64,000 nt of DNA from Candidatus Omnitrophota bacterium (GCA_041663425.1 JBAYMS010000003.1:1959-65958); one strand, 5' to 3'; positions 7,356 to 32,773 are shown, numbered from the stretch's first letter. Notes: a model not told the origin generated them from the letters alone. Numbers and translations are program-made.

Positions 7356-7360
7356 AATAG

Positions 7361-7367
7361 CTCTCCT
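7361..7367 (-). promoter_or_regulatory. Shine-Dalgarno (AGGAG) for gene 3
   Basis: Minus-strand AAAAGGAGAGCUAUU-AUG, with the AGGAG core 6-7 nt upstream of the start codon. Confidence 0.5.
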
Positions 7368-7420
7368 TTTATATCATTGGGTAAAAAGGTGCCTTTTCTT
7401 TTATTTACAGAACGTGCATA

Positions 7421-7449: not shown

Positions 7450-7492
7450 TGCTTGGAAACTAACTATTTTATACTTTAATTGGCTGGCCTCA

Positions 7493-7564
7493 CTCTCGCG
7501 AGCCGCTTGGCGGAAGCTGCGAGAGCGAAGACCAACCTACTACCGGGGTGGCACCACGGTAGTA
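7493..7564. terminator. Two intergenic stem-loops between the gene A stop and the gene 3 promoter. They may be a terminator or other RNA structure.
   Basis: CTCTCGCGAGC..(12-nt loop)..GCTGCGAGAG at 7493-7525. TACTACCG-(11-nt loop)-CGGTAGTA at 7538-7564, followed by TTTT on the plus strand. On the minus-strand transcript no clean U-tract follows either stem. Confidence 0.3.
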
Positions 7565-7577
7565 TTTTAAGCCCATA

Positions 7578-10500
7578 TTATGCCGCGCTGCTGAGCAGCA
7601 GCACCGCGTTTCTATAACTCGATATCTCCTTTTCGATGCCTATTGGCAGTATCGGCCTAAATTTGAACCTACCGCTCATCTTCAGGTCGTCTATTACGCC
7701 AGGAGGTAGTTCTTTTTCGCCACTCACTACCAAGCTGACCAGTGTGGCATAAGAGTGTATAGCGGCAAGCACCTTAGTGCCGTTTATATCTATCTCGTCC
7801 AGTTCCAGGAATTTTTCTTCGCCTGGTTTTTCGTTTTCTTTGAGCAGCTCACCCCTGGCAGCACGGACACCTATATACTTACGCTCTGTATTCATCTGCT
7901 TCGCTATGCCGCCCATCATGTCATCGTATGAAGCATAGTCATGCTTATTGATGAACCTGACCCTGCCTACGTCCTTGATAGAGCCGCTTGAATTCAATAT
8001 AGCAAAAGCCTCTGTCTCTGTCTTGACTTCGTCTCCGCCGATAATATAGGTAGTAATGCCCTGTTCAGCGGCTTCGTTGATATTGTCTACTGTGTAAGGA
8101 TCTGACAAGTTGGATTTTTCACTTGTAACTATAACCACAGGGCGATCTTCAGACAGCATGTCCTTAACGCGCGGCACGCTCTTATAATATGCAGCCTGCA
8201 CCTTTTCATCAGATTTTCGTTCTGCTATAAGCCGGCGCAGCTTAGCAAGCCTCTCCTGTCTTTCAAGCATCTCGGTCCTATTCGGCCTGGCGCTAAGATA
8301 GTTGAGTATCGCCTGTTCGAGATCAACTTTTCCAAGGTCAGGGAGAAGGGCTTTAATAGTTGCGTCTATTTCATTTCGTATGGCATCATCTATAGAGGTC
8401 ATCCTGAGTATAATTCCGTAATCATTGGCCAGTTTCATCGTAGCGGCTTCCCTGACAATCCTTTCATTTTCCTCCGGACTAAAACCTATCGTCTCGTCAA
8501 TATATATGCCTGCCTGGTTATTTTTTAATTCCAATTCTTTAGGCAAATCAACCCTTCGGACTTCTATATTGAGCCCGGAGCGTCTGAAAGATTCTCTCAG
8601 CCCTTCTTCCTGCTCAGGCGTGACTGATTTCGGCACACCAATAACCAGCCCTGCGGCAGGCCTTTCTTTCAGAGCCTGGACTTCGCCTATCAATCCATTA
8701 ATAGCATACCTGTCATCTGATTCATTTATATACCGATTAAATATCTCCGCCAGGATCTTCACCCTATCGCCCTTTGAAGCAATAAGCGGCGTTTTCGCCG
8801 ATCGCTCTCTATTATGCGATGCTTCAATATCTAAGCGGAAATTAAGCATCTCTCCCAATATGATCGCTAATGCAACAACATCATCCTGAGGCATGGCGGC
8901 ACGCCCTTCTCTCTGCCTTTTTACACTTATATAGTTGTTACGCAGAATACTTTTACGATAACTGTCAGCGGCTACTTCGTCGGTTATCGGAGACACAGAA
9001 TCGTTATCGATGAAAACAACCCGGTCCGCACCATGCAAGCTTTCGCCCGGAGAAATCACTATACCCGCGGGATTTATGTCACCCGCTACACAGCCATTAT
9101 CAAAATAGGTCTTCTTATATGCATCTAATACCGCCAGAGCCAGATCAATGAATTTATCGTCGTTACCTTCCTCCTGATGTAAAACAAAATTTTTAGATAC
9201 GTAATTCCACAGACTTTCCCCTTTTACGTATTCAGTGATAAGAGCGTCTCCGTAAAACTCGCCCTCCAACGTCGTCCCCCTGACGTCAAGCAGCCCAACA
9301 AGGTTAGGTATAGATGAGTTTATATTATTGCGGTTTATCTTATTGGCAAGAATCTCCGCCTGCCGCCTTATAATAAAATCTGAATTCTTCGAATCCAGCG
9401 CGGCCTTTACTACATAATCATGCCCGTTTTCCAGGACAACACCGTTAGCAAGTTTTTGCTCAGGCCCTTCATATCTGAAACGCATCGCACCCCATTGTTT
9501 AACAAGCCTGTTTGCCATAGAAAGCTTTTCCTGGAATTTGAAATGCTCGTTAAAAAATCCATGGTCTAATTGAACTATCGGCGAAACCGCACCGGACGGC
9601 CTGCCGGAATATGCAGCGCCTAGCACAGCCACACCATAAAGTGAAATGAAATTTATCAGATGCGGCAAAATAACAATATCTTTTGGTATAGGTATTACAA
9701 AATAAGCCAGCAGAATGCCTATAACAGTTATGGATAATATAACCGGAAGAGCAGCGGATCCCGCTCTAGAGTATCCTCCATGATCGCCTTGTCTCAGACT
9801 ATCTTTTGCGCCCGATATTATCTTCCTTATGATCTCTGATATCTGACCGCTCGTTATATGAAACACAGAGACCATCTCTTTAGGCGTCTGACCCTGCGCA
9901 GCACGCTCAAATATCTCCCTGTTCCTGGGGCTTATTTTTAATTCGTCAAAAATTTGCTGCAATCTGACCTTTCGATTAACGAATTCTGCTTCGCGCACAG
10001 CTTCGTCGCCTGGCCTGTCCTCAAGGTGTTCCATGTCTATAATATTAGAACTGACTGATTCTCTGGCGATCCTTCTCCTCTCAGTCACATTATGATTTCT
10101 CATTTCGGTATGTATGATTTTTGCCGCCCATGTGGAACGCTGGAATCCCAGTTCGGGTTTAAATGTAATCGCAGCCTTCCAGAGCCCTCCGATAGAGTTG
10201 TTGCTGTTTCCATGAAGCCCGGCGGAGACCAATTTATCCTCACTAAGATATGGGTATTTCTTTTTATAGTATTGCGCTATTTGCCTGACCAGATATTCAT
10301 TATCCCTGATAAAGTCACTTATCCCTTCCTCGTTTCCTGACTGGAAAGAATGGTCTCGCGCAGCACGTATCATCATGAGCGCACCGAGGCCTATTGCACT
10401 ATTTGCAAAATATGGCGCCGCGGCGGTAAAATATCCCGAGGCGAAATAGATGTAATCACTTAAGAACTGCGCGAAACCAAATTGAGCGATAGCGGCAAGA

Positions 10501-13500
10501 TATGGCATGCTAACAAATACTAGTCCTGTGAGAAGAGCAAGCGCTATAACCATAGCCGTAGAGACAAACCCGGCACGGTTCGCTTCAGATAACGCAGTGA
10601 CGGCGAACTCGTAACCGCGGGAGGCGGAGTCACGTAATCCATTCATAGCAGAGTTTCTCAAGTCCTGATCGATGGCGCTGTTTTTAATAATAGATAATAA
10701 TGCGGTGACGGCGGGTGCGTGGCCGCGGGAGGCGGAGTCAGACAATATATCTATAGTAAATCTTCTTGAGTCCTGATCAATGACACTGTTTTCAACAATA
10801 GATAATAATGTAGGTGTAAGATCATTAAGTGCGGTGACGGCGGGTGCGTGGCCGCGGGAGGCGGAGTCAGACAATCCACCTATAGCGCCGATTCTTAAGC
10901 GCCAACCGATGGCACTGTTTTCAACAATAGATAATAATGTAGGTGTAAGATCATTAAGTGCGGTGACGGCGGGTGCGTGGCCGCGGGAGGCGGAATTCCA
11001 CAATATGCTTATAGCAAATTTTCTCAAGTCCTGATCGATGGCGCTGTTTTCAACAATAGACGACAACGCAGCGATGGCGGGCACGTAACCGCGGGAGGCG
11101 GAGTCATGCAATCCATTCATAGCAGAGTTTCTCAAGTCCTGATCGATGGCGCTGTTTTTAATAATAGATAATAACGTAGGTGTAAGATTATTAAGTGCTG
11201 TGACGGCGAGTTCTTGACCGCGGGAGGCGGAGTCATGTAATGCATTCATAGCAGAGATCCTTAAGCCCGGATCGATAGTATTATTTTCAACAATAGACAC
11301 ACCATCTATCGCAATATTCTTTAGTTCTTTCGCTGGCTTATCATCCAAACCAATCCTCATCTTATCTATAAACTCATCGTTCCATCCCTGTTTTTTAATA
11401 TGCTCATCGTACGACAATCCTAAACCTTGCCCACGATAAAATTTCTCTACTGCCTCATCCTGTTCGTCAGCCATATCCGCCGGAAGAGGAGGAGTATTTC
11501 CGGTGTCAGAAAAAAGCTGCAGGAACGCTATAATGCCTTCCGGGTTGTTCCCAAAAAGATGGTTTATATGTCTGCGCAGCAGCACAGAATGATCCGGCGT
11601 GTATATAGCATGTTGATATAAAGGAAGCCCCGTATGAATAATGTTGAACTCCTGCGGCCGCGTCAAGGCATTATGCACTATAGCCATAGCTACTGCTATA
11701 GTAAGCTGCATTCTCCCAAAATATTCATCTTGTCCCAATTTTATGGGGGCAGGCGCAAAAGTATTCAGGGCCACATTATGTGTTCTTCCATATTTAGTAT
11801 CAAAGTAGAACGGGGTTTCATTTTTTTCCGTATAGCTTGAACCTAAAAGCGCTATTTCATCAAAAGTAAGTATGCTATGGCTGTATGCAAATTTACTCCA
11901 GCAATACTCCATAGATTTACCTATAAAAGTCAGCGCCTTAAGTGAATCATCGCTAAATTTCTTTTTCGAACCGACGTGTATGTGCAAACCCTGCGATAGC
12001 ATCAATCCGTTACGATTACGATCGACATATTCCATTATTTTCCTGAGACCTGAATTTAACCTGTCGAACCCTTCTCTGTTGTTTGGTAACCCACCCTCAC
12101 CCGTAGTTACTTCTATATTAGCCCCGTCTCTTTTGATTACCCAGCCCTGATCTTTTAAACCTTCCTCGGTAGCAAATCGATCTAGCCCATCATAAAGAAC
12201 ATTCGTTGCCGCAATGTTCTTGTCATTTATATTATTACTGTTAAGAAGAGCCATTTCGATCTCTATGCCGAATGTCATATCTTTAGGCATGTTCGGCACG
12301 CCGTCTTTGTGATATCGATCAAGTCGTTTTACTATATTAAGGTAAACCACATACCACTCTTCCGAGAGAGAAGCAAGATCCAGTGCTACGATATTTATTA
12401 TGCGCCTCGAGAATTCATCATCCTGAGTCTTAAATGCATCTATAGAACCAAGGATCATCTCAAGCTCTTTTATGTCATATTTAAAAGAAACGTTAACTTT
12501 AATTAAAAGACGGTATGCCTTACTATGCGCTTCTTTATTCCCGGATTTAGTTAAAATAAGCAATGCTGCTTTTTTCAGAGCTTTCTCATCGTCCACACTT
12601 AAAACTATGCCCGTTTCATCTATAAAGAAAATATTATCAAGATGCGCTTTAAGCTCTCCCTTCTCCTCAAGGGCAATAACATCGGTTACGCTGGTTATAT
12701 TGCGAAGGGCTGATAAGGATACCTGACAATCTCTTTTTATTTCATCAAGCTTTTTCTGTTTCGTAGGAGTTAAAACGATAACCGTTTTATCCGGTAAGAG
12801 CAAATTATTTTTCATCACATATTCAGGTTTATAAATTTTATCTAGAGCGGGTGTTTTTGTAGCTACCATCGTGAGCACGCCGATGCCAATCCCGTTATTC
12901 GCAAGATACGGTAAGACGGAGAAAATATCATTCGAGGCAAAATAGATGTAATCGCTTAAGAACTGCGCGAAACCTAATTGAGCTATCGGTATTATGAAAT
13001 ATGCAATAAATAGGCCGGCAACAATAGAGGCCGTTAAAACAGGTATTAGCGTAAACCCTTTTTGATCAGATGGAGGAGTTTCGGGCGTTGCCTGGCCGGC
13101 AATATCTTCAACTTTCTTCAGGCGCTTGTCAAACGAATCAAACTGTTCCGTTAAAACTTTAAGCCTTTCGCCCATATCCGTAACAGCATTCTGCAAGGTA
13201 ACCAGCAAAGTAGGTTTTGCAGCATTTTCCGCATCCAGCATGGCACGTATACGCTTAAGGCTCGTGCCCAACATGCCCATTTCCCATCCTTTACCTGTTG
13301 CCGGAAATTCTAGTAATGGCTGCAGCAGTTTATAAAGCTCGTCGGAGACTGCAAGGCTCACCGGTGCCTTGACCCTATGGTCAGGATGAATAGAAAGCAT
13401 AATAGTCCGGTGCCATTTTTTATATTCTTCATTATCCAATACCTGCCCTGACACTATTTCCATTATCAGTTTTTTAGCGCCTTCGATATCGCCGTCAAGG

Positions 13501-16500
13501 ATAAGGACTGTATTTTTATCCAGGTTAAAACTGCGGAGCCGCTCGATAAAATCTTCAAATAATGGTGACGAAGAAACCTTTTTAATCGAAACGGCCGATG
13601 CATCTTTTGCCGCCACTACCTTCTGCCCTTCTACAGGTGCCCTCTCTACTGATTTGGGCTTTGGAGCTACTTCTTCCGCGGGCTTAAATACCACTTCCTC
13701 GCGAGGTGCTTCTTCAGAAATAACGCCCTCGTCCCTAGTCTCAGTTTCAGAAGCTGTGCCTGCCCTTCGCTGCGCATCCATTTCAGCGAACTCCCTCCGA
13801 GCTATTTCCTGCGCTGCAGCGTCTTTAGCCTTATCCTCGCTATCCTGCCTGATCCGCTCTCTTCTCTCAGCTGCTGCTCTGGCAGCACGCTCCGTCTTTG
13901 CCTGGTCCGATATATCCTCGCCCTGTGAAATTTCCTGCTCTACGCCCACCCAATACCTTCCGATAACTCCAAATAAAGCCAGGCCTCTTTCTTCCGCTAT
14001 GTTGTTAAGGTTGGACATTACTAAACGGCTTTCGGGCTTCGCAGAGTCCCCATAAAGCGCCTTAAGAATTACCGTAAATAATATGACGACCTTCAATTCT
14101 TCAGCTGCAAAAACATCAAGTCCAGCCTCTTTGGCCAATCTGCTTATATTTAATTTTTCGCGCGCGATCAATTTGTTGAATTCCTTGAGCACTTCGGGCA
14201 TTATTAAAATAGAATGCATAAATAAGAGCCACTCGGAAAGCTCACTCATACCGCTTTCAGTCTTTTTATCTCTTCGGGCATATGAAATCTTTGTATTCTT
14301 TTTTATACGTTCCGCATTATTGCGTATCTTGTCTTTAAGATCTTTAAGCGACTTTGATTTTTTTATGTTTTCGATAAGCTCTTCTTTGAGTAACGTCGCC
14401 CCTACAACATAACCCTGATCGGATGAAAGGCGCGTCATATATTCTTCCTGGATGGCACGATCGGATTGACCGGCAGCTTTTGCTCCTGCAGGGCCCTGTA
14501 ATAAAAGCGGCCTCTGCTTCATGCTTTCGGTAAGCAGAGCGGCAAAACCTCCGCCTCCTTCAGCTTGAGACGCAGGGCCTGTAAGCAACGCCGCCGTGGC
14601 CTGCCCAAGCGCGGATTGCGCATTGCTAGGACTTGCACTCCTCAACTCTGATGCTGTAATGGCCGATACGTCAAGCGTCTTAAGTGTTTCAATAAATGCG
14701 CGCCTGGCCACAGAGCCATCGATCCTATCAGTAACATTATCGGTGTCGATCCCTGCACTATTATAGATAAGCTGAACTTTCTTTGCCCCATATCCGCTAT
14801 CGCCTGGTCCGGAAGAATTCAGATAAGACGCCATGACTTCGGACAAAGTTCTGCCGGCATTTATCGAAAGGATATTTCTGGCAGTTTCCGCATCTATCCC
14901 TTTGTCTGCGTATTGGACCGACTGGCTATAGCACACAACTGCATAAGCACTCAGAAGCCTTTCAAGCAGCCTTGCTATGCTATTTCTGTCTACACCATCC
15001 AGAGTATTCGCAAGGTCATCTCTATATAAAGTCCACGAAGATGACATATCCCCACCGTGTTCAGTGCCGTATGTTAATAGCGCCTTTATAAGTTTATGAT
15101 CTTCTTTGGAGGGTTTTTTAATTTCAGGTTTATGGTCAGTAGCTGCAATGGCAGGTTTTTCAACGGGTCCGATAGCTTCGCCCGCGACCTCTTCTGCTTC
15201 TTCCGCCGTTATGGCAAGTGTCGTCCTGGCGATGATCTCTCCGGCTATTTTTTTGGCTTGCGGAATCAGCGCTTTAGCTTTCTGCGGATCAGTCTCACTC
15301 TTCTGAACCATCTGGAGCATTCCGGCCCTTATCAATAAACGCGTAATCTGCCTGGAATCTGCGCTGCGGGCAGAGGCAGGTAAAAGTATCCTTGAGCCTG
15401 AAGTATAAAAATTATTATCTTCGGCGAAACCGATAGAGGCCCCGGACACAGAATTTTTAATATCGGACACATATTTATAATAAGAACTTTTAGTATTAAA
15501 CCGCCTCATCGCTTCTTCGAATATCTTTTTCGCCGCAGCAATTTTTTCTTCATCGCTGCTACCACTACCCAAAATCACAGATGCAACCGCACCGAATCCG
15601 CCGATAAAAATCACTTTGGCCATAACAGGCGATATAAAATAAGCAGCTCCAGCAAGAACGGTTATAAGAATAAGCCCAATAACTCCCCTTCCTCTGAAAA
15701 GAGCCCTATGTTTTTTATTCAAGTCCTCGGCGGCTATACGGCAAGCTTTTATAATAGCACCGCACTCTTTCGCTTCCGCCATAACCAATGCCTTTTCATC
15801 GGGGTCGCCTATCCTGGAGATTAAAGCCTTCACCCTACCCCTGTCACCGAATAAAATCTCCATATCGGCCAGGCTGTCTAAAAGGCTTAATGTCTGCGGT
15901 ATGTGCTGGAAGGTGTCAAAAAACTTCAAATAATCGGAAGCAGAATCTTTAAAACTGCCTATAGCATCTTTTAGTAATTCTACATTTACGCTTTCACCTT
16001 CTTTTACGCTGCGCTCAACATTTTTAACGTCATCCATTCCTTCTCTATAGCAACCTATTGCCTTATCAAGAATTTCCATTTCTTTGAAAGACGGCCTTTC
16101 TGAGAAATATTTTTCCGATTTAGCCTCCGTGCCAGGGTAGGTCTTTCCGAATATCCAACCGCGAACAAGTTCTACTAATTTTGACAACATCCCGCTTCTT
16201 AAATAAGTCATACCTACGGCAGCCACACCGAAAGAAGCAAACAAACTGCTTCCGACAAGCCATGAAGGCAATGCACCGGAGGCAAAATAAAGATAGCTAT
16301 GCAGAAATTCCGAAGGGCCTATTATCGATATTCCAAAAAATACTGATATGGTAAGCGCTGTAATAAGACCAACCATCGCGAGAGCTGCTGACACTTCAAT
16401 CGTTGTAAAACCTGAGCGTTTATTATGGGTCTCGATCTTATTTACAAATTTTGCTTTAAGCATAATTTCATCGAATTCCTTCAATCTGGACAAGCACAAG

Positions 16501-19500
16501 TCTCTCCAGTCCTTATCCTTAAGATCAGCGATAAGCTCTTCTATTTCGGCATACTTATTACTCCTGAGAGGCAGCATCATATTGATAAAGTGAGACCCAA
16601 GAGAAATTCGTCCTTCTCTGAGTCTTTTTAAAATCCCAATAAATTTTGAAAAATCTACTATAGCCTCAGATAAAATTGCCGGATCCGGATGTTGCGCGTT
16701 TTTAAAGCCTTCCAGGCAAAGCACGCCTTCCTGATAATATTCATTAGCCTCGTCCTTAAGCTTTGCGGCCTCTTCATCAGATAAAGCCTTGCCGCGCCGC
16801 AGCACCATAGACACAACTTGAAAAATCAAAGCAACCCCTAAGATAGCGATAATAGCCACTGCTACTACCGGGACAAAATAACACGCAGCTAAAAATATTA
16901 TGCCAAATATACCTATGGTCTTAGCAGTCCTTAAATCCCCTCCTTCTTCACCATCATCCATATTGTCTTTGCCAAAATATATCAGACCGGCAACGCCCAT
17001 AATAGGAATGCCGGCCTTATCCGGAGAAGCAAAAAATTTCATCGCCTTATTTATAAGATCCTGAACCTGTGGCCAATTAAAGAATGCATAAACTGCACCC
17101 AGGCCGATGGCTGTAATGAGGACACTGCGCAGCATATGCGTCTTTGCTTTGTCGTGCCGGACCACCGGTGCCGAACGTGAGAATAAGGATAGGAAGGCTA
17201 TCGCATCGGTTAAAATGAACACTGCGAGCACCAATGCCAAGCTGGTACCAGGATTTTGTTTAAAAAACTCAATACCTGCATTTATAGCATCATTTACTCC
17301 TTTAGCAAATGGACTCCCGGCTGCGGCAAGTAACAACATCGGTGCGTGGAGCTGACGAGGCGCTGCGGCTTTGTCTGATAAAAATTTCTCACGCTGGACT
17401 AACGTGGATTCCCACATACTAACTGATTCGGCCTGCTTTACATTTTTCTCCGATTTCAGATAATCCATATTAGCTATATGATGAATATTTGTGGTAAGCA
17501 CAAATTCTAGAAGATTCAGTAAAATCGCGATAATACCAAAGGGCGTATTGATCAAGGCAGGATTGGCCAGGATTTCTGAAAAATCAAAAGGCGCTACGGC
17601 CAGCGAGGCCAGAACATTAAAAGCAAATATCTTGAATACTGATTTCGTCGGGGGCGCTCTTATGCCTCCGACTTCGATAGAATGCGCTGCGTAGAATATA
17701 GCCCAAGAAACAAATATCGCTCCTATAGCACCGCCGAAGTAATTCATCAATGTAAATGCCTGCGTAAGCGCAAAGAACCCGAGCTGTTCCCAGAAAGCCT
17801 GATAGTGCTCAGTAAGCCCCAGCCATTTAAGCGGCGTCTTCTCCGCAGACCTTAAGAATGCCCGCACCATAGGTATCATCCCCGCGGCAGGAGTTTTATT
17901 ATTTAAAATATTCGCAAGTCTTTCCGTTTCGGCCGTTACCTCTGATATCCTCTTTTCAGTGCCTTCCGGCAGGCCGGAATATTTCATAAAGAAACCCGAA
18001 ATATCTTTTTGCAGCTGCCCGGGCTCTTTTTCTCTTTCGATTTTACGATGTGATAAAATTTTCTCTACGGCCATCATAGCACCGCAGGCCAAACCGAAAG
18101 CAAAACAGAGGGCAACAGCTCCTCCGCCGAAGGCAAAAAGGCTTCCTAAAGCAATGGTGATATAATCATATTCCCAATGCATCGCTACTATCGCGACAAA
18201 TGTCCCCACACCTGCAATAGCCCCGGCTGTCCCGGCAATAGATATGAGGATCTTTTCTTTGAAATCGAAGAAAGGCTCGTTAATAAATGCAGGACCTGCG
18301 ACAGGCGCTTTTAAACTATCTATTTTTTCACTATTTTCGATAGCCGTATTATAAAGTTTAAGGCTTCTGTAAAGATGAGTGAGTATTTTTGCCCTGTCTT
18401 TATTTAAAGTGAATACCGGATCGCCTGTATTGCTGTCACGCCCCGACCTGTAGAAAGGCCAGTCCTGGTCCCTGAATGGCCTTCCGGCCGGATCAAATTC
18501 AGAGTTGAACAAACTTACTTCCGGAAGCAGCATCTTTCTGTCATGGCTGTATCCGACAAAAACCCTGACATTTATATCAACGTTATTTTTTCTGCCAAAA
18601 TACTCAAGGACTGATTTAACATATAAAATAGTTTTACCGGTAGCGGCCATATCCATCAAAAGAATATCCTTATGGTCAGTTATACCGCTGCGCCTCATCT
18701 GTTCAAATAGCAGCTCCGCCTCTTTTGCGAGAGCAGGATCGCTATTCCACTGTTTTATCATTTCATCTTTAAAATAAGCACTGATCTCATTAACTAATTC
18801 CGGGTGATAGCTGGCATAAAAAGCATCCGTCTTCTTTGAAGGCATCCTGCCGCCGCGGCCTATTACCGCATTGCTTAGCTTTTGTATAGAATGCGCTTTC
18901 GCTTTTTCGGTAGCACGCTGCACCATTTCAATACCGCTATCAGGCACATAATCACTGACAATAGCATTATTATTCATACCCGGCTGATACACCAAAGCGC
19001 CTGCGGCGGAATAACCGTTCGCCATACCGTAGTATTTCATAAATTCAGCGGCAGTTATAGCGTCACGGGCGAGGAAAACCGGAAATTCACCATGCTTAAT
19101 ATCAGCGGCATTGAAAAACGAAGGCAGATTTGATATAAGCCTGTCCAGGTGTGTCATATCCATATATAAAGACTGGCGGTGATATATAAGCTGGTAGCGG
19201 AAATATTCTATGGGATCCAGCATATTATATTTTCTGGATATATCACTTACCGGCACACCGCTTTCTATAAGTTTATTGTTGGCTTTTTCCAGGATAGCGA
19301 ATATCTCTTCGTCAGTGAAAGCCCTTGGCTTGTTATTATTATCACGCGGCATCTGGTCTTTAGGTAATGCCCATATGATATTATTGAGATCTTCCAATGT
19401 AAAAGTTTTATGTCTGGCGAATGCGGCTATCTTAGCGGCTATTTTTTCGTATAGGATAGATGCCACGGCAGACGGCTCAACACCATCAGATGCAGACGCA

Positions 19501-22500
19501 TAAGGATCTTTTATTTTCTTTGTCAACTCACGGTCTTCCGCACCAAACACGTGCCATTGCAGCGCCCTAAGAAGATAGTGTTCTTCCACGTGCTTATCCG
19601 GATTCGATCCGGCTTTTAACATCATTATCTCAAGTTCATCCGGGGCTGTTTCCTTAAGATAATTTTTTATAGCTAAAACAAGCCCGGGATTCAGCATAAT
19701 AGCTGAATGGGCTATCTCGTGGAATAGGGCTACAGGATTGTCAGATATTGTTTTTGAAATGACTATAAGATCTGGCGTAGCAAACGAAATGACCGGATCG
19801 CCGGGATGAGAAAGCAGTATAACGTTTCCTTTAAAAGATTTAAGATACGTATCTATAATGGCATTCGCGACAGGATTGTTGTGTTTTTTAATGTCATCTA
19901 AAATGGTTTTTATATTCCTTGGCGGAGCACGACCGACAAAATCTGCCTTACTCAGATCTATAACATTACCCGTCTCCCTATCCTTTAATAAACCTGTCAG
20001 CCTATTTTCGGGTGCATTGTATTGCGGGACAGCACCTTCCACTGGATCGTACTTTCCTATCATACCTACCTGTGAACCCTCAATTATCGTGCCTTTGCCA
20101 TCATGGAAAAACTGACATTGCGGATATGCCTCGGCCTTTTCAAAAATAGCCCGCTCATGCTTTGCCCAGGCGGATACTTCTCTATCGCGCGCATTAATAA
20201 AAGTATTTGCGCTCATTATGTCTATGGCCGCGCCCATAGCGAGTCCTTCTTTCCTGGCTTTAGCTCTGCCGATGAGGACATTTCTGCGCTTCCAACCTTC
20301 TTTACGTGCAAGAAAGCCCACGTCTCCCATATCATTAGACCTGACCCATGACCTTACAACGGCCTTCCACTGAGATCCGATAGATGAGTCAACTGTCTTG
20401 ACGCTGAAAAGACCGTTGTTCAATTCTTCTTCTTCGAGGAAATGATCACCCAGTCTTAGTATATTGCGCACTCTTCTGGCATTTGCCCCAATGGGCCTTC
20501 TGATGAATTCTATTATCGCGCTTCTGTTCTTTTCAAGATCCTGCCCCTTATATAGATCCGCAAGTCGTATACTAACCATATCTTTTCCACTGAATTCCTG
20601 CTTATCAAAATTTGGGGTTATGAGCGCTGCGCGCAGCAAACCCGCCATCTCCTCGCGCCGCTCGGTGGAAATCCCTTCATCCCTTCCTTCTTCCACAGCC
20701 ATCAAATAGGCATGAAGTTTTGAATATTCTAAAAGAGTGTCAGAGACTAAGTCTACCTGTTTTGAATATGGCGTTACAACAGCTATATCGTCAGGGGCAA
20801 GATTGCGCTCATTCAAAAGCCAATTGACCCATGTAACCACCCTGCTGACTTCACCTATATTAACTATTCCTCTGTCAGCAGTATCTTTTCTGGCCCTTTC
20901 CGAAGAGACAATTTTTTCCTGATATATCCTTTTGTCCGTCAAACCTTGCCCATCACTGATCGCATAATGATCCCTTACCAATGTCCCGGTCTCTTCACGA
21001 CCGGCTTTCAGCCTACCATTGTAAAAATAGTTCTCTTCGTCTACTACTAAAGTACCCGACCGGCGCTGTATGTCAAGGAAACGGAAGCTGGGCCTTGTCA
21101 CTTTGAATACCGTATTATCGTAAAGATCCAGGGATTTTTCGAGAAGTGAAATTTTAAACCTTTCCACCACATCCGTCTCAAACACTTCGGCTAACGGCCT
21201 GTTCTCCCCGACTTCACTCCATCCTACGATCTCGCTCTGTCCGCTTAAGTCACGCAGTGCGGCTGCAATATCTTCTTTGCTGATACCATATGCCGGCAGC
21301 TGATCCTGGTCGCCTACGAATATGGCTTTTTTAACATCGCTGAGATTGGTAAACATCCAAAGCGCCCATAAAGACTCCGGAACCGTCGCCCTGCTAGACT
21401 CATCCACTATAACATAGTCCGTCTTCATGAGCTCCTGTCTATCTCTTACATCACGATCTCCGAAAAATCCATTTACAGTTCCGCAGACAAGATTAGGTGC
21501 TTTTTTCTGTATAATATTATCCAGAGCGGCAGCCTTATTCTCCCAGTCACCTAATATCTGAGGATCTACGGCATCCTCATTATTACCCACTCTGGCAAAA
21601 GGGATCTGTTTCACTCCTGACCGCTCCTGTTCACTGAACAGCCCATCTATATCCTTTAGCACCTTTAAAATGTTATCCAATGCGTCATTCTGCTGGGACA
21701 ATAACCTTAGCCTTTTCTTCTGGTTTTCGACTATCAGTTTTGCAAGAAGCGTTATGACCATGGTCTTTCCTGTGCCGCCCGGGCCCTGTATGAGCGTGAT
21801 GGGAATTTCCTCGCATAAACCGTCTATCAAGGCCTCTTTCTGTTCGGAATCAAGAGGATACTTAAGCATTCTTTCCAGCGGTTCTATAAGATCGCGCTCT
21901 ATGGCATTTCTTTTTTCAGCTATGGAGGATGCTCTGGCTTTATCAGGCACATCGATCAAAATCCCGAGAGATCTGTCTGCAATAGGCCGGCCTGTTGTAG
22001 CTAAACCGAAGGATTCGCCTTCACCTATAGACTGCTTCGTTGAGACTTTCAATCTTCCTATAATAGCAGCGAGCATTTCGCACTGTCTCTGCCAGACATT
22101 ATCCTTTACCATGACCAGTTTGCCGCCTTCGTTCAGCGCGTAGGACCACTGCATAAGCAGCTGATCATAACCTGCCCTTACCTTAGGCTGCTCAAATTTA
22201 ATGGTATCCTCTCCTACATAACGCACTCTAAAAAACGGCTGCAGCTCTTTCTGGTTTGATTTAGCAGGGCGGACTTTAAATGAATCGCCGCGCCTTACAA
22301 AATTTGCAATATCTATTTTTTGACCTGTCGTAGGATGTTTAAAGCCGGATACGTAAAGGAAGCCATTTCTCACACTAACCTGTTCAAATACGAATTCCGC
22401 GGCAGCGTCCTGGGATATGTGCATACCCTGCCTCGTCTTCTTATCCCTCTCGGCCTCCGACAGCATCATTGCCTTAGCGATAAAATAATCGTCCATAAGT

Positions 22501-25500
22501 TCCGGCAGCCATATATTCGCCGCAGCCTGTGAAATTATTTTCTGAGCTTTTTCAAGATGCGCTTTTGCCGGAGAGAAATCTCCGAGTTCAAATATCGCGC
22601 GCGCCATATCAAGAGCTGCCTTATAAGCTTTTTCTCTGGCGGCCTTCTCCTTTTTGTCGATCTTACCGGCCTTATTAAATTCATCAATAGCTTTTTGGGT
22701 AAGCAATTCAAAAACGGCCGTCTTGTCCGCTTCTTCCGGATACTGCAGAAGGAGCCTTGATTCCTTCAGCACCGTTTCAACATCCTGTGCATCCCTGATA
22801 TTTTTTGTATGTTCAGCTATATTATCCCTACACTCCTCTATCCTCTGGATCAGCCTCGTAAGAGCGGGGCTATTTTCGTCTATCTGCACGCCAAGGACAG
22901 GCTTAACCCTGCATATATTAGCCACTATAGCAGAAGCTTCTCCATATCTGCGTTCGGCGATTTTCGACTGTGCTTCCGCCAGCAGTCCCTGAACCTTTAA
23001 AAGACGCTCTTCTGCAATTTTCTGCTTCCGCTCTTCCATTATGCTGCCCAAAGCGCTTAAGGCTTCGTCTATATTCCTTCCATCTATAGAAGGATCGCGA
23101 AGGGCTTCGCCCGCATAGATACACCAGCCGGCATCCTCTCCGGCAATTTTAGCTGCACGATCCCCTTGGTTCCTACCCAGAAGTGCCTGTGCGGTAACGG
23201 AAGCTCCTTCGAAATTACTGTCTTTATATTGTTTTTCAAATTTCTCCCATTGCGCAACAGCAGCCAGTATTTCATCTCTTAATGGACCGAGAATACTTGC
23301 AGCATCAGCTCTGGTATTCATAAGTTCCGCGGCATTTTTATACAACGCCGATTTATATAACGAGTCTACGGTAGACTTATACGCATCCGCGCTAAGTTCT
23401 TTTTTTATAGACGAAAGAAAAACACGCATCTTATCTTTTAATTCGCCTTTTACTTTTTCCGAATGGGATAGATCTGACAACGCTATATATACTTTATTCC
23501 CTTTTTCATTCAATCCTATTTCGGCAGCAAATTCGGCTATGCGCATCACCCTAGCGACATCTTCCTTATTATCTATTTTTATCTCTCCACTGGCTATTTT
23601 TTCTAAGTACCCTATTATTCTGGAGAAATCTAAAGAACCGGAAAGCACGGACAAAATATTGCATATGATATGCATTGAATCCTGCGACAAGGGCTCATCG
23701 GACTCATTCAGGAGAAGATCCGTCAGCATATCTACTATTTTCTGGGCCCACTCGTCTGGCAGTAATTTTATGAGCATCGGATAAGAAAATCTGCTCGAAC
23801 CATCCGCCCTTCTGCTGTTTACTACGTTCCTTCTATTGCCATATTCTTTCCCTTCAAAGGCTATCGCATCCTTCAAACATTTTTCTGCTGCCCGAACGTC
23901 CCCTTTCGCATTAAAAGCAATCGCGCCCACTACGTTCATCTGAAAAGCCGTTTCATATCCTTCGTTTTTAAGCGCCATATCCACAGATTCGTTAAGCACT
24001 TCTACGGCATCATCATTGCGGCCTGCAAAAACATCCATAAGCATATGCTGCAAAGTAATATTTTCGCGCCTTTTTTCGGAAACAACTTTATTTATAAACC
24101 CTCCGGATATTTTAGACATAGCCTCGGCCTCACTAAACCTGCCCTCACTTTTATACATATGTGCCAGATTCTGGAGTAAAAGCATATTAAGTAAATTTAC
24201 TTCGTCGTTTTCGGTAGGATAATATTGCTGATTGACGGCAATGACTTCTGCTAATTTTTTAAAGTTATCCCGGTCTTCCAGAATATAAGCCCAAAACGCC
24301 ATGGGGACGCTCTCTGACATCATATTATTTTCTACTATAGGGGGGGTGTAAACAGTTACTGCATTTCTGATAGCTGCATAAATATCAGGATTATGAATAG
24401 CCGCAACGAATGCCGCATTTATATCTATTCTGGATATAGCGTCAAGAACATCCCTTGCCGGCGACACAACCGTTCCGTCTTCCTCAGTCCAGCCATGGTT
24501 TTTTACCATTTTACTTATATTGTCCGACCACACACCCCAGATGTAATCAGCTTTCTCAATATCGGCTTTCTCTCCTAAATACTGGAGAGCCATAGCATAG
24601 CTAGTCAATACATAAAGATCGTCGGCTGAAATCCTTACAACCCCCTTACTTCTTGCAAAATCACGTAAAAAAGAAGTCCGCTCAAAGAACTTAACTGCCC
24701 GCCTATACATACCGGCATTAGAGGCGATTCTACCCAGCCTAGTATATAGTCTGTTAGCAATTCTAATAAGCTTTGAGTCGGTGGCCTTATCCAAAGTATC
24801 AAAGAAAGAACGAAATTCTGCGCGGCTCTTTTTATCTCTCTGTTTTGCAGTTTTTTGAACCTCATAGTTATTATTTATATATTCGAACATCGCTTCCAGC
24901 CTATTTTCAAACTCACGCTTTTTGGGCATATCCCATGAAATTATCTTGAAATGCTCCAGCACTACATCTAACAAATGGTCATGCTTTAGAGGCGTAAGAC
25001 CTATTATCCCGGAAGCTTTGACAATCCTTTGACCCGATTCATCCTGAAGGCATAACACTGAGACAGGGTCATCATTTTTTTCGGTAAAATACCTGCTGAA
25101 AATATCGGAGTATTCTTTCGCTATTAAAGCATAAGTCTCTTTTAAGCCGCGCCCACAGAAGTTGGATATTACAAAAACATTATCTAATTTCTTATCCGCA
25201 AGAGGATCAGCCGCAAGCTCTTTCCTTAAAAATTCATTTAAAGAGTTTGATAGCGGGATATTGCCGTAATGCTGTATGAGAGATTTTACCCAAAGCATTG
25301 CATCGCTACCGTCTCTCTCATTAAAAGCCGCTGCTATAACCTTAATCTTGGATAATATCTCCGGAGTAAGCTCCCTCTCTCTAAGTTTGTCATCCAGCAT
25401 TTTACGCATTCCTCTGGAAGGGTCGGATTTAAATTGCAGCCTGAAATTTATCATTGCAGCAAACGCATCGTCAGGGACAGCTCCCCAGCCATCTATGTCA

Positions 25501-28500
25501 CTTATTGTGTTATCAGCCTTATCCATAAGCAATTTACGCTGCTCGTTGGACAACCCCATGAAAATATCAAATGGTAATATAACACCTCCGGAAAGAAAAT
25601 AATTTTTATCATGTGTATGCATCCTTTTAAATAAATTTATAGCGGCAGCATCAGCTGCATCGGCCTTGCCAAGATGCGAAAGGATGTCTATATAGTATGG
25701 CAAAGCGCGTATGATCTGTTCGTCACTGCCTTTATCAAGAACAGCCGCACATCTTTTTTCCAGCGCTTCACTGAAATTACCTTTATTGCATTCCAGAGAA
25801 ATGCGGAACATCTCGCGTTCGGCATCCTGCTCTGCTGACGGCATCATCTTTGTATCGGACATTGCGATCTCCGCTTCCTCAAAAGTCTCCGACACCATCT
25901 TAAAAAGTTCGGCAGCGCGTGCATCATCTTTACCGCGTAATGAACAGGCTAATTTGATTGCGGCATTACAATACAAAGTGTCAATACGGCCATTGGCGGG
26001 ATAGTCAGCTCTCAATCTTTCCAGAAGGTCAAATGCCTTTGACACGTTTTTATCATCACCCATCATAAGGTCTGCCTCAGCGCATCTTTTAAGCATTTCC
26101 AGCTTGGTATAATTTCTCATACTATCATTTATCATATTTTTAGCGCACATCTCATCTGCGATCGCTACATATTTAGCGGCTATCTTTTTTATCTTGTCGG
26201 GGATGTCTTCTTCTGCGAATAAATATTGTCTGACGTAGATCTTCAGTAAAGCTTGGGCGGAATAAATACTTTCTACCGGGGGCGGCCCTTCCCTGTAGAC
26301 TATAAATTCCAGGATGATCCTGGAAGTCTCCCAGTCTCCCAACATATCTGACGCCATAGCCAATACTGCCAGCCATCCGGTCTTGGGAGATGGTTCCGAA
26401 ATTTTTAACAACAGATATTCATAGGCTAATTTAGCTAACTTCTCATAGTTCTTTTGTTCGACATACACATCTTTCATAGCCGCATAAATCTCCTCCAAAT
26501 CAGCCTTCATCTCACCGGTTCTTTTGCAAAATTCCAAAGCCTTAAGACCATACTCTTCTGCTTTCGCCAACAATATGCCAACTATTTCCGGCATCGTTCC
26601 TTTTTTAGCAATATTTAGAAGAATGCTCGGAAATAATACATAAAAAGCATCGCCTTTCCCCTGCTTACCCTCCAAGGCGTTGCCTTTTTTTGCCATTTGG
26701 CTAACTGCATAATCAAGCAATTCCTCAACCATTACCACTCTGCCTTCAGCCACAACACGGCGTAACATCACGGCAACTTCTTCTTCGAGTTCCGCCTGCC
26801 TCTGTGGTTTTATAGCATCATTGGCAATATCTGCAAAAAGTTTTGAAACAATCCGGTCCGCCTCCTGTTTGTCAGAGGCAGGCAATCCCCTACCACCACC
26901 TAAAGCAGCATATAGTAATATTTTTTTATTCTTAATGACATTTATCACGGCTACGATAACATTTACGCCTAGGTGCACAGCCATCGACACGAGGACTGCG
27001 AGATGATAATTTGACGAGAAGTAGCTTGCTGCAATTATTCCTGCAACACTTACTATGAATGGAGCGGTAAATACCCTGAAGATATAAGAACTGTAGTCTT
27101 TCGTTATTTCTGATATAGCTCTGCCTTTTATCGGAGGAGCGCGCTCATTAAATATGTGCAGTATGGTAAATATAGCCGCGGAGATTGAAAGCGCTGCAAA
27201 AGAATATCCTCCAGTAAACGCCATAGGCAGCCACACTTTAGCAGCTTCCTCAAATACAGGCGCATGAGCAAATGGTGAGTATCCCGAGCCGAATATGCCT
27301 GTAAGAGATCCGTATCTCGCTTTTACAGCATCCTTTGGAATAGTTAGTTCGGCTACAGGTACGAAACCAGCTTCCGGCGCCTTAGCCCTTGATGCAAAAC
27401 CGTTTTCAAACCCTTTTTGCCAATGAGCCATTAAATTTTCCACGGTAAGCCTTTTGCCAGCCTGCTCTATAAAATAGTTTTGAATATCTATGCTTGCATC
27501 CTGAATGTCCTCTTCTTCATTCCTCTCGATAAGTTTAGGAATGTAAGTCTTTGCAAGTTCTTCCGCCTCCTTCTGTGTATTCATAGTCACGAATCCGCCC
27601 AGATCAAAGAAGCAAACCTTTATGCGTTTATTTTTTTCCTGCGCCGATGGATCCAAACTAACCCCTGCATTAACAAGAAGCACGTCATGATTAAATATCC
27701 CGGCTTCCCACATGTCTTCAAGTGCTCTGAAATAATCATCAATAATAGTCTTTGCTGTTTCGACGTCTTCGCTACTGCCTTTAGAAAGAGTTTCCAGTAT
27801 ACCGTTTTCTACAAAACGTGACCCCACCTTCATATACTCCGCATCAAGCCCTACTATAGGCACTATTTCATCTTCTACATACACAGTACTCGGCGGCGAC
27901 CATATCATACGGTCACGGAAACGCGCGGGAACTTTCGGCCTTATATCGTCGATGACACGATTGGGTAAAGTCACTCCTTCAAGCTTGGTTGTAGGTACAA
28001 ACCTCGTCCCGAGATTATTAATAGCCGTCTGCGCACTAACCAGGCTCAGCTGTGCAACCGGGACATGAACTATAAATCCTCTGCAGTGATAAACATAACA
28101 AGGCGTTTCATCATTCGACCGTGGCCTGCTGATAAGCTCCCAGTCATTGTTTGCGAGTTCTTTATGTAAATCGGCTTTGACAGGTTGGCCTTCCCCAGTC
28201 ACACCTGCCATACCCACCGGGAAATGGGTGCTGGTTTTTTTCGAAAGCCACTGAGAGATTTTAACATTATAGAATGCATGGCCTAGAATGCCTGAAAATA
28301 CGGAGAGAGTCGTAGCAGGATAAACCGGCAGGAATAAAAATGGCACAATATTTATAACCCGCAAAGCTGCGCCTAGCAATGTTATTATATTTATCATATC
28401 CGGATGTGATGGTGAATACACAGGTCTGCCATCCTCTGTAATTATATAAACACCACGCCAATGCGCTGCCTGAAACAGAAAGATGCTTAGCAGGGCACCG

Positions 28501-32745: not shown

Positions 32746-32773
32746 ATTATATCATATAATACTAACTTGTCAA
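32746..32773 (-). promoter_or_regulatory. Consensus sigma-70 promoter for gene A (TTGACA-16 nt-TATAAT)
   Basis: Minus strand reads TTGACAAGTTAGTATTATATGATATAAT. The -35 element is at 32773-32768 and the -10 at 32751-32746. It lies in the 198-bp AT-rich spacer about 85 nt upstream of the gene A ATG. A weak AAAGGAAAA lies about 12 nt upstream of the ATG. Confidence 0.55.

What the first reader, a model, noticed from the sequence alone, without database searches (positions are those of the whole stretch)
10439..10507. About 68-bp dispersed intragenic DNA repeat (about 90% identical) at 10439-10507 and 12921-12989, encoding the TM-exit motif FAQFLSDYIYFAS
Nucleotide-level conservation between the two copies is much higher than in the surrounding sequence. 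This implies recent duplication, gene conversion or strong constraint, for example a processing or docking site. It also offers substrates for intragenic recombination that would delete or duplicate the 2.5-kb amidoligase-HEAT cassette.
Basis: seen in the sequence. Interest (0 to 1): 0.55.

Follow-up and report, generated by a model that had tools for sequence, protein, structure and literature searches.

The report
Repeated membrane-hairpin motif in giant gene
The two near-identical 56-base stretches are two copies of a conserved turn motif in a small membrane-anchoring hairpin that recurs inside an 8,360-residue bacterial protein. Their extra DNA similarity most likely comes from a short patch copied from one hairpin to the other, so this is a modest curiosity and not a new kind of genetic element.

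Summary
The copies lie 2,496 nt apart (832 codons, in frame): 10437-10492 and 12933-12988, 51/56 nt identical.

Both copies lie in one 8,360-aa ORF on the minus strand (7578-32660). They encode IAQ[F/L]GFAQFLSDYIYFAS, the turn between the two helices of a ~70-aa transmembrane hairpin. The gene carries four such hairpins, one of them without the motif.

Amino-acid constraint alone predicts about 75% nt identity. The observed 93% (14 of 17 identical codons, 7 expected, P about 5e-5) points to recent shared DNA ancestry. No RNA structure is predicted, and copy 3 uses different codons.

Copy 2 is a mosaic. Its first helix resembles hairpin 4, while its core and second helix resemble copy 1. This favours a gene-conversion or partial-duplication patch of about 41 codons.

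The hairpin family is very rare: two other proteins among 1.84 billion. One of them also has two hairpins with near-identical cores and unrelated flanks.

The 832-codon interval is not itself duplicated. The longest perfect identity is 20 nt. No structural variants could be examined.

The context is three consecutive giant genes that resemble published Omnitrophota giant genes.

The parts
7578..32660 (-). Gene A, an uninterrupted 8,360-aa ORF that contains all the hairpin copies
   Evidence: ORF list. About 22 hydrophobic segments, many in pairs. An SF1 helicase domain (AAA_11/AAA_12) at aa ~3603-4135 and weak TPR hits.
10437..10492 (-). Repeat copy 1 (core). Codons 10437-10490 encode IAQFGFAQFLSDYIYFAS, aa 7391-7408.
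   Evidence: 51/56 nt identical to 12933-12988. Codon alignment.
12933..12988 (-). Repeat copy 2 (core). Codons 12933-12986 encode IAQLGFAQFLSDYIYFAS, aa 6559-6576.
10365..10589 (-). Hairpin A1 (aa 7358-7432): basic residue-GF, helix 1, core motif, helix 2, basic residues
   Evidence: Hairpin HMM domain E 4e-29. AlphaFold2 model with pLDDT 72: helix 2-37, a short helix 39-50 (FAQFLSDYIYFA), then helices 54-63 and 68-74.
12858..13073 (-). Hairpin A2 (aa 6530-6601). A mosaic: helix 1 resembles hairpin A4, while the core and helix 2 resemble A1.
   Evidence: HMM E 4e-29. Segment-wise alignment scores with shuffle tests.
10368..10490 (-). Extended DNA similarity covering the core plus helix 2 (~41 codons), paired with 12864-12986. 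This is the inferred conversion or partial-duplication patch.
   Evidence: 93/123 nt identical. dS is 0.36 in the core and 0.84 in helix 2, and is saturated in helix 1.
16215..16427 (-). Hairpin A3 (aa 5412-5482), core GPSEFLHSYLYFASGALP. An older paralogue that resembles the hairpin of protein P0004.
   Evidence: HMM E 1e-30. 49% identity to P0004 aa 655-732. It uses different codons for the shared residues.
9576..9773 (-). Hairpin A4 (aa 7630-7695), a two-helix hairpin without the core motif. Its first helix is the closest relative of A2's first helix.
   Evidence: A2-A4 helix-1 score 52, null 3.5 +/- 6.3.
11322..12575 (-). Domain inside the interval between the copies (aa 6696-7113). It is homologous to the stand-alone protein P0001 and may have a glutamine-synthetase-like carboxylate-amine ligase fold.
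   Evidence: 38% identity to P0001, E 4e-89. No Pfam hit. Low-confidence model whose top Foldseek hit is YbdK 1r8g, with glutamine synthetases lower in the list.
10615..11298 (-). Tandem 108/129/237-nt repeats (36-43-aa units, helical-repeat-like) immediately upstream of hairpin A1 in the protein
   Evidence: Tandem Repeats Finder, 78-83% matches. Protein-level 61% identity between aa 7121-7237 and 7243-7359. dS 0.41.

Best explanation
The repeat is not a DNA element. It is the coding footprint of a conserved motif in a ~70-aa two-helix membrane hairpin that occurs four times in one 8,360-aa protein.

Each hairpin has a basic residue, a long hydrophobic helix, a Gly break, a 12-residue aromatic helix (FAQFLSDYIYFA), a Ser-Gly break, a second weaker hydrophobic helix, and then basic residues. 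It most likely tethers the mostly soluble giant protein to the inner membrane with both ends on the same side, probably the cytoplasm, and places the conserved aromatic turn at the far face.

Strong purifying selection on the turn (dN about 0.02) accounts for roughly 75% nucleotide identity. The rest, up to 91-94%, comes from shared codons. This means the core and second helix of copies A1 and A2 (~41 codons) share a more recent DNA ancestor than their first helices do. The likeliest cause is a short non-reciprocal transfer (gene conversion or partial duplication) between the paralogous hairpins, probably from A2 into A1.

Shown here: the repeat, its frame, the motif family, the codon excess and the mosaic pattern. 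Inferred: the conversion mechanism and its direction, the topology, and the anchoring function.
For: Existence and frame of the repeat.

A family of hairpins in gene A.

The motif is conserved in other proteins. A full HMMER scan of 1.84e9 representatives found only P0002 (two copies) and P0004 (one copy) as real hits. A3 and P4 share 20/29 core residues across proteins.

Codon test. 14 of 17 identical residues use the identical codon, against 6.97 expected (P = 2.7e-4). With the protein held fixed and codons drawn at random, 40.7/54 nt are expected to match and 50/54 are observed (P = 5e-5). Three different Ala codons (GCT, GCG, GCC) are each matched between the copies.

Core versus the rest of the alignment: 14/17 against 21/50 identical codons, Fisher P = 0.004.

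Gradient of divergence: dS is 0.36 in the core, 0.84 in helix 2, and saturated in helix 1.

Mosaic. A2 helix 1 matches A4 (score 52, null 3.5 +/- 6.3, 0 of 2000 shuffles reached the score) but not A1 (P = 0.12). A2 helix 2 matches A1 (score 42, null -1.3 +/- 5.7, 0 of 2000 shuffles reached the score).

Independent replicate at protein level. The two hairpins of P0002 share 24/29 core residues, including positions that vary between proteins, but only 3/20 and 0/15 in the flanks.

No nucleotide-level function is apparent. The RNA folds are no more stable than shuffled sequence (z = +2.25, +1.14, +0.68). Copy 3 uses other codons. There are no Rfam hits.

Topology. K/R residues flank both ends of all six hairpins and the turns carry few.
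Against: The sample is small. The core has 17 informative codons and about 10.5 synonymous sites, so the confidence interval on dS is wide. The difference in dS between the core and helix 2 is not significant on its own.

Identical residues in the weakly aligned flanks may be chance alignments. That would bias the flank codon identity towards the random level.

A simple duplication followed by very fast divergence of the hydrophobic helices is not excluded.

No DNA was available for P0002 or P0004, so the replicate is at protein level only. No orthologous genome was found, so concerted evolution cannot be shown by a tree.

Topology was not computed with a dedicated predictor. Gene A also has an N-terminal signal-anchor-like segment, so sidedness is uncertain.
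Confidence: 0.6

Rival explanations
1. Plain, fairly recent duplication of the whole hairpin with no later conversion. The turn is held by purifying selection, while the two hydrophobic helices, constrained only to stay hydrophobic, diverged very fast.
For: Core dS of 0.36 is similar to the dS of 0.41 for the neighbouring tandem repeats, which are clearly duplications. The A3-P4 comparison shows the same pattern of a conserved core and poorly conserved helices.
Against: Helix 1 of A1 and A2 is at random level (dN 1.3-1.9, indels needed, P = 0.12). Under neutrality dN should not exceed the core dS of 0.36. A2 helix 1 is significantly closer to A4 than to A1, which a single duplication of A1/A2 does not predict.
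Confidence: 0.2
2. The repeat acts as an in-frame recombination joint. Exchange between the two cores would delete or duplicate the 832-codon ligase-repeat cassette, giving population variants and modular evolution of the giant gene.
For: The offset is exactly 832 codons. A crossover in the core gives an intact chimeric hairpin and a 7,528-aa ORF. The ligase-like domain also exists as a stand-alone protein, so the cassette is modular.
Against: The longest perfect identity is 20 nt, followed by 14 nt. By my recollection this is at or below the ~23-27 bp minimal segment for efficient RecA recombination in E. coli; I did not check this here. No variant or related DNA was found in three collections. 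The interval itself shows no sign of having been duplicated.
Confidence: 0.1
3. The nucleotide sequence itself is under selection, for example as an mRNA structure, a translational pause that aids membrane insertion, or a binding site. The copies would then be old and held identical at synonymous sites.
For: There is an excess of identical codons in the core.
Against: No stable or shared RNA structure is predicted (z-scores positive). Hairpin A3 encodes the same F-L-x-x-Y-x-Y-F-A-S residues mostly with different codons. There are no Rfam matches.
Confidence: 0.05
4. Protein-level co-evolution only. The hairpin turns of one protein contact each other or a shared partner, so they are kept identical by selection without any DNA transfer.
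For: Cores are identical within each protein but differ between proteins, in both gene A and P0002.
Against: Selection on the protein would leave codons random, yet 14/17 codons are identical (P about 5e-5). It could act together with conversion, but it cannot be the sole cause.
Confidence: 0.05

Closest known systems
Giant multi-transmembrane proteins of Candidatus Omnitrophota (West-Roberts et al. 2023, bioRxiv 10.1101/2023.11.21.568195; 2026 preprint 10.64898/2026.06.07.730766)
   Same: The window holds consecutive ORFs of 8,360 aa, 10,319 aa and at least 2,457 aa. They have many transmembrane segments, TPR and helical repeats, and mostly unannotated sequence. Gene B has a divergent SecA_DEAD domain. 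Both papers describe internal repeats, and the 2026 preprint reports that repeat copies have usually diverged at nucleotide level.
   Different: The taxon of this window could not be determined. The proteins are smaller than the >30,000-aa examples. Searches of the two papers' main text for the word 'hairpin' and for repeat and transmembrane terms turned up nothing that describes this hairpin motif or its C-terminal tag. The motif itself was not used as a search term.
Intragenic gene conversion (concerted evolution) between paralogous repeats in bacterial genes
   Same: There is a short patch of excess synonymous identity between dispersed paralogous segments. Its flanks are diverged and give conflicting relationships for different parts of the segment.
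   Different: The tract is very short (56-123 nt) and lies between copies that are otherwise almost unalignable. Only two copies are involved. No donor or recipient orthologues are available to prove the event.
Helical-hairpin (two-helix) membrane anchors in large bacterial proteins
   Same: Two hydrophobic helices are joined by a short turn, with basic residues on both outer ends.
   Different: The turn is a strongly conserved aromatic 12-residue helix (F-[LM]-x-x-[YW]-[LI]-Y-[FY]-A-S-G). It has no Pfam family and only two other carriers among 1.84e9 protein representatives.

Membership tests
Intragenic gene conversion / concerted evolution | Synonymous-site identity between paralogous copies above what amino-acid constraint gives | tested here: met
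   14/17 identical codons against 6.97 expected (P = 2.7e-4). 50/54 nt identical against 40.7 expected (P = 5e-5).
Intragenic gene conversion / concerted evolution | Mosaic structure: different parts of a copy have different closest relatives | tested here: met
   A2 helix 1 is closest to A4 (score 52, 0 of 2000 shuffles reached it). A2 core and helix 2 are closest to A1 (score 42, 0 of 2000 shuffles reached it). A1-A2 helix 1 is not significant (P = 0.12). The segments are short.
Intragenic gene conversion / concerted evolution | Paralogues within a genome cluster together while orthologues in other genomes do not | tested here: inconclusive
   At protein level the cores pair as A1-A2 (20/29), P2a-P2b (24/29) and A3-P4 (20/29). 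No DNA or clear orthologues were available.
Dispersed non-coding or mobile DNA repeat (REP, MITE-like) | Intergenic or frame-independent location, terminal or internal inverted repeats, many copies | tested here: not met
   Both copies are in frame in one ORF at a 832-codon offset. There are only two copies in 64 kb at up to 3 mismatches. No stable fold is predicted and there are no Rfam hits.
Omnitrophota-type giant genes | Very long ORFs with numerous transmembrane helices | tested here: met
   ORFs of 8,360 aa, 10,319 aa and at least 2,457 aa. About 22 and 8 hydrophobic segments by Kyte-Doolittle scan, which is a crude method.
Omnitrophota-type giant genes | Divergent SecA DEAD-like helicase domain in the giant protein | tested here: met
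   Gene B aa 4135-4301 matches PF07517, E 1.9e-12 and 47.5 bits against a cutoff of 24.6. Gene A instead has an SF1 helicase, AAA_11/AAA_12.
Omnitrophota-type giant genes | Taxonomic origin in phylum Omnitrophota | not testable with these tools
   The window has no marker genes. Neither scan of the reference genomes (hairpin motif, C-terminal domain) found a relative.
Amidoligase / glutamine-synthetase-like carboxylate-amine ligase (cassette domain) | Significant match to the family profile or fold | tested here: inconclusive
   No Pfam match at E <= 1. The AlphaFold2 model has pLDDT 57. The top Foldseek hit is YbdK 1r8g (E 3e-4, TM 0.32), and glutamine synthetases 2d3a and 9nlr are also listed.
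HEAT repeats (cassette) | Match to HEAT or HEAT_PBS profiles | tested here: not met
   No HEAT-family Pfam hit in aa 6500-7450 at E <= 1, although 36-43-aa tandem repeats exist. P0002 does carry true HEAT_2 and HEAT_PBS repeats.
Proteolytic processing site | Cleavage at the motif, or a recognisable peptidase site conserved in all copies | not testable with these tools
   An AxA-like 'AIA' precedes the core only in copy A1 and is not conserved in A2 or A3 (read by eye). Proteomics would be needed.

The most novel reading that the evidence does not exclude
The conserved aromatic turn could be a self-recognition element. The hairpins of one giant protein would pack against each other, or against a dedicated partner or insertase, in the membrane. 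Their cores would be kept identical within each protein by repeated short-tract conversion. The same cores would serve as in-frame joints at which enzyme cassettes are swapped, deleted or duplicated, giving a mechanism for the modular growth of bacterial giant genes.
Probability: 0.1. Interest if true: 0.65.

Novelty: new member of a known kind. Interest (0 to 1): 0.3.

Why it matters
Giant bacterial genes are largely unannotated, and how they grow and stay organised is an open question.

This case gives a small, defined module: a two-helix anchor with an invariant aromatic turn. The module recurs within one protein and shows signs of DNA-level homogenisation both here and, at protein level, in an unrelated metagenomic protein.

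If the pattern is general, such hairpins would be useful landmarks for cutting giant proteins into domains and for predicting their topology. They could also explain how cassettes are shuffled in frame.

As it stands, this is an ordinary consequence of paralogy plus constraint, with a modest hint of gene conversion.

Tried and rejected
1. It gives 11/69 identities and was rejected in favour of offset 2496.

2. Duplication of the whole 832-aa unit. Chunked self-BLASTP finds similarity only in the ~70-aa hairpin. The apparent 200-aa upstream extension adds only about 5 bits to the score and is not significant.

3. RNA structure or a known RNA family. Folding z-scores are positive and there are no Rfam hits.

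4. Relatives for a comparative test.
- The search for homologous proteins with the 951-aa region returned only P0001, which matches the cassette domain.
- The same tool with a six-hairpin alignment returned nothing.
- Two genome-contig scans found no relatives.
- Of the two metagenome-contig scans, the first found no relative. The second, a pattern for the C-terminal tag, found one locus, L002, which shares only the C-terminal ~360 aa and has no hairpin.
- The viral-contig scan found nothing.

5. DNA for P0002 and P0004. Their ENA samples have no file available, so the codon test could not be repeated.

6. The L001 contig. The ORF upstream of P0001 has no hairpin.

7. A profile search of the PDB with the cassette alignment. 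It was swamped by P0001's WD40 repeat and was uninformative.

8. P0003 from the representative search. It is a low-complexity repeat protein and a spurious hit.

9. Signal-peptidase-type cleavage motif. An AxA motif occurs only in copy A1 and is not conserved.
Full report
**Observation**

The window holds three consecutive giant ORFs on the minus strand.
- Gene C runs from about 7355 to beyond the left end (at least 2,457 aa).
- Gene A is 7578-32660 (8,360 aa).
- Gene B is 32859-63818 (10,319 aa).

The reported repeat lies inside gene A and is real. A gapless comparison shows the copies are 2,496 nt apart, not 2,482. In that register, 10437-10492 matches 12933-12988 at 51/56 nt, and the best segment is 48/51. 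Weaker similarity continues to 123 nt at 76%. A 42-nt pattern with two degenerate positions occurs exactly twice in the window and never in 100 shuffles. The offset is 832 codons, so the copies are in the same frame. They encode IAQFGFAQFLSDYIYFAS (aa 7391-7408) and IAQLGFAQFLSDYIYFAS (aa 6559-6576).

**What the repeat belongs to**

Each copy sits between two hydrophobic segments. Chunked self-BLASTP, a four-way alignment and an HMM show a ~70-aa two-helix hairpin module present four times in gene A:
- A3, aa 5412-5482, core GPSEFLHSYLYFASGALP
- A2, aa 6530-6601
- A1, aa 7358-7432
- A4, aa 7630-7695, which has the two helices but lacks the core

An AlphaFold2 model built from six hairpin sequences has pLDDT 72. 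It predicts a long helix, a break at Gly, a 12-residue helix that is exactly FAQFLSDYIYFA, a break at Ser-Gly, and then further helices. All hairpins have K/R residues just outside both helices and few in the turn. By the positive-inside rule this suggests that both ends are cytoplasmic and the turn faces outward. That is an inference, because no dedicated topology predictor was available.

The 832 codons between A2 and A1 are not a duplicated unit, since only the hairpins are similar. The interval contains two features.
- A domain at aa 6696-7113 is 38% identical to a stand-alone 688-aa metagenomic protein, P0001. It has no Pfam match. A low-confidence model (pLDDT 57) has YbdK, a carboxylate-amine ligase, as its best Foldseek hit (E 3e-4), with glutamine synthetases lower in the list.
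- Tandem 36-43-aa repeats lie at 10615-11298. Pfam does not recognise them as HEAT repeats.

**How rare the module is**

A full HMMER scan of 1.84 billion protein representatives with the three-copy profile found three hits. One, P0003, is a spurious low-complexity protein. P0002 (1,745 aa) has two hairpins, and P0004 (2,317 aa) has one. P0004 also shares gene A's C-terminal ~300 aa, ending in YRNAV[IL]LLSSAA. A degenerate DNA pattern for that tag found one further giant ORF in a JGI metagenome, L002. It shares only the C-terminal domain and has no hairpin. No relatives were found in the reference genomes or the viral contigs.

**Why the DNA is so similar**

I considered four causes.

(a) Amino-acid constraint. 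The motif F-[LM]-x-x-[YW]-[LI]-Y-[FY]-A-S-G is conserved across all six hairpins that carry it. A3 and P0004 share 20/29 core residues across different proteins. dN between A1 and A2 in the core is 0.02. With the protein held fixed and codons drawn at random from the gene's own usage, the expected identity is 40.7/54 nt (75%). Constraint therefore explains most of the similarity, but not all of it.

(b) Recent shared DNA ancestry. 14 of the 17 identical residues use the identical codon, against 6.97 expected (P = 2.7e-4). 50/54 nt are identical (P = 5e-5). Three different Ala codons are each matched between the copies. Core dS is 0.36.

(c) Selection on the nucleotide sequence. This is not supported. 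The RNA folds are less stable than shuffled sequence. Hairpin A3 encodes the shared residues mostly with other codons. There are no Rfam hits.

(d) Protein-level co-evolution alone. The codon excess rejects this as the sole cause.

**Duplication or conversion**

Divergence is uneven along the hairpin. dS is 0.36 in the core and 0.84 in helix 2, and helix 1 is saturated and needs indels to align. Codon identity is 14/17 in the core against 21/50 in the rest of the alignable region (Fisher P = 0.004). One caveat applies: some identical residues in the flanks may be chance alignments.

Segment-wise comparison shows that A2 is a mosaic.
- Its helix 1 is significantly similar to A4 (score 52, null 3.5 +/- 6.3) and not to A1 (P = 0.12).
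- Its helix 2 is most similar to A1 (score 42, null -1.3 +/- 5.7) and only weakly similar to A4 (P = 0.02).

The simplest reading is that A2 and A4 are related along their whole length, and that a patch of about 41 codons (core plus helix 2) was copied between A2 and A1, probably into A1.

P0002 gives an independent replicate at protein level. Its two hairpins share 24/29 core residues, including positions that vary between proteins (QIAKMLT). Their flanks share only 3/20 and 0/15 residues. DNA for that contig was unavailable.

I put about 0.6 on conversion or partial duplication of a short patch, 0.2 on simple duplication with fast helix divergence, and little on the other explanations.

**The recombination-substrate idea**

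A crossover in the core would be in frame and would leave a chimeric but complete hairpin in a 7,528-aa protein, so the idea is structurally plausible. However, the longest perfect identities are 20 and 14 nt. By my recollection this is at or below the minimal length for efficient RecA-dependent exchange in E. coli; I did not check that figure here. No reads or related genomes were available to look for variants. The idea remains untested.

**Context and comparison**

Gene B carries a SecA_DEAD domain and TPR repeats. Gene A carries an SF1 helicase, and gene C a CofD-like domain. Very long ORFs with many transmembrane helices, divergent SecA_DEAD domains and helical repeats are the published description of Omnitrophota giant genes. 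A 2026 preprint reports that internal repeats are the rule in such proteins and have usually diverged at nucleotide level. The window fits that kind of gene, but its taxon could not be established.

The hairpin motif has no Pfam family and did not surface in the term searches I ran on those two papers. It is therefore a new small module within a known kind of gene, with a modest and incompletely proven signature of gene conversion.

**Verdict**

Constraint and recent DNA-level copying are both supported. The cassette-recombination and processing-site ideas are untested. Interest is low to moderate.

Noticed in passing
window 1-7373 (-), 7578-32660 (-), 32859-63818 (-): Three consecutive giant ORFs lie on one strand, separated by spacers of only about 200 nt. 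They are at least 2,457 aa (runs off the left end), 8,360 aa and 10,319 aa. The N-terminal ~525 aa of genes A and C are 35% identical (INIQDAH...EG motif) after a signal-anchor-like segment.
   Followed up: partly
window 50916-51416 (-), gene B aa 4135-4301: A divergent SecA_DEAD domain (PF07517, E 1.9e-12) lies inside the 10,319-aa protein, with TPR arrays further downstream. This is the hallmark reported for Omnitrophota giant proteins.
   Followed up: partly
window 7578-7616 (-); also P0004 C-terminus and L002 540-578: An identical C-terminal tag, YRNAV[L/I]LLSSAA followed by a stop codon, ends three otherwise very divergent giant or large proteins. It sits on a shared C-terminal domain of about 300-360 aa at 26-29% identity. 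It may be a sorting or recognition signal.
   Followed up: partly
window 20256-21854 (-), gene A aa ~3603-4135: An SF1 (Upf1/Dna2-like) helicase domain (AAA_11 E 1e-19, AAA_12 E 5e-18) is embedded in gene A. Gene A therefore carries a different helicase type from gene B's SecA_DEAD.
   Followed up: no
window 2778-3116 (-), gene C aa 1420-1532: A CofD-like (2-phospho-L-lactate transferase family) segment, E 1.5e-16, lies inside the partial giant ORF C.
   Followed up: no
window 32746-32773 (-): A perfect sigma-70 consensus, TTGACA-N16-TATAAT, lies about 85 nt upstream of the gene A start codon in the AT-rich spacer between genes B and A. Gene A may therefore have its own promoter.
   Followed up: no
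window 10615-11298 (-), gene A aa ~7121-7359: A tandem array with 108/129/237-nt periods (78-83% nt identity, dS about 0.41) encodes 36-43-aa helical-repeat-like units (…SASRGHAPAVTAL…). It lies directly upstream of hairpin A1 in the protein and is not recognised by the Pfam HEAT models.
   Followed up: partly
window 9576-9773 (-), gene A aa 7630-7695: A fourth hairpin aligns to A2 with a clean 16-residue gap that removes exactly the conserved core (AQLGFAQFLSDYIYFASN). It is a natural 'core-less' version of the module.
   Followed up: partly
window 8900-9400 approx (-), gene A aa ~7780-7950: There is a weak protein-kinase-like match (Pkinase, E 0.03, below threshold) downstream of the hairpins, and a weak Sigma70_r2-like match (E 0.028) at aa ~7490-7530.
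   Followed up: no
window 7480-7577: A GC-rich inverted repeat (…CTCACTCTCGCGAGCCGC…GCTGCGAGAGCGAAG…) lies just downstream of the gene A stop codon. The simple terminator scan did not call it, because it has no T-run.
   Followed up: partly
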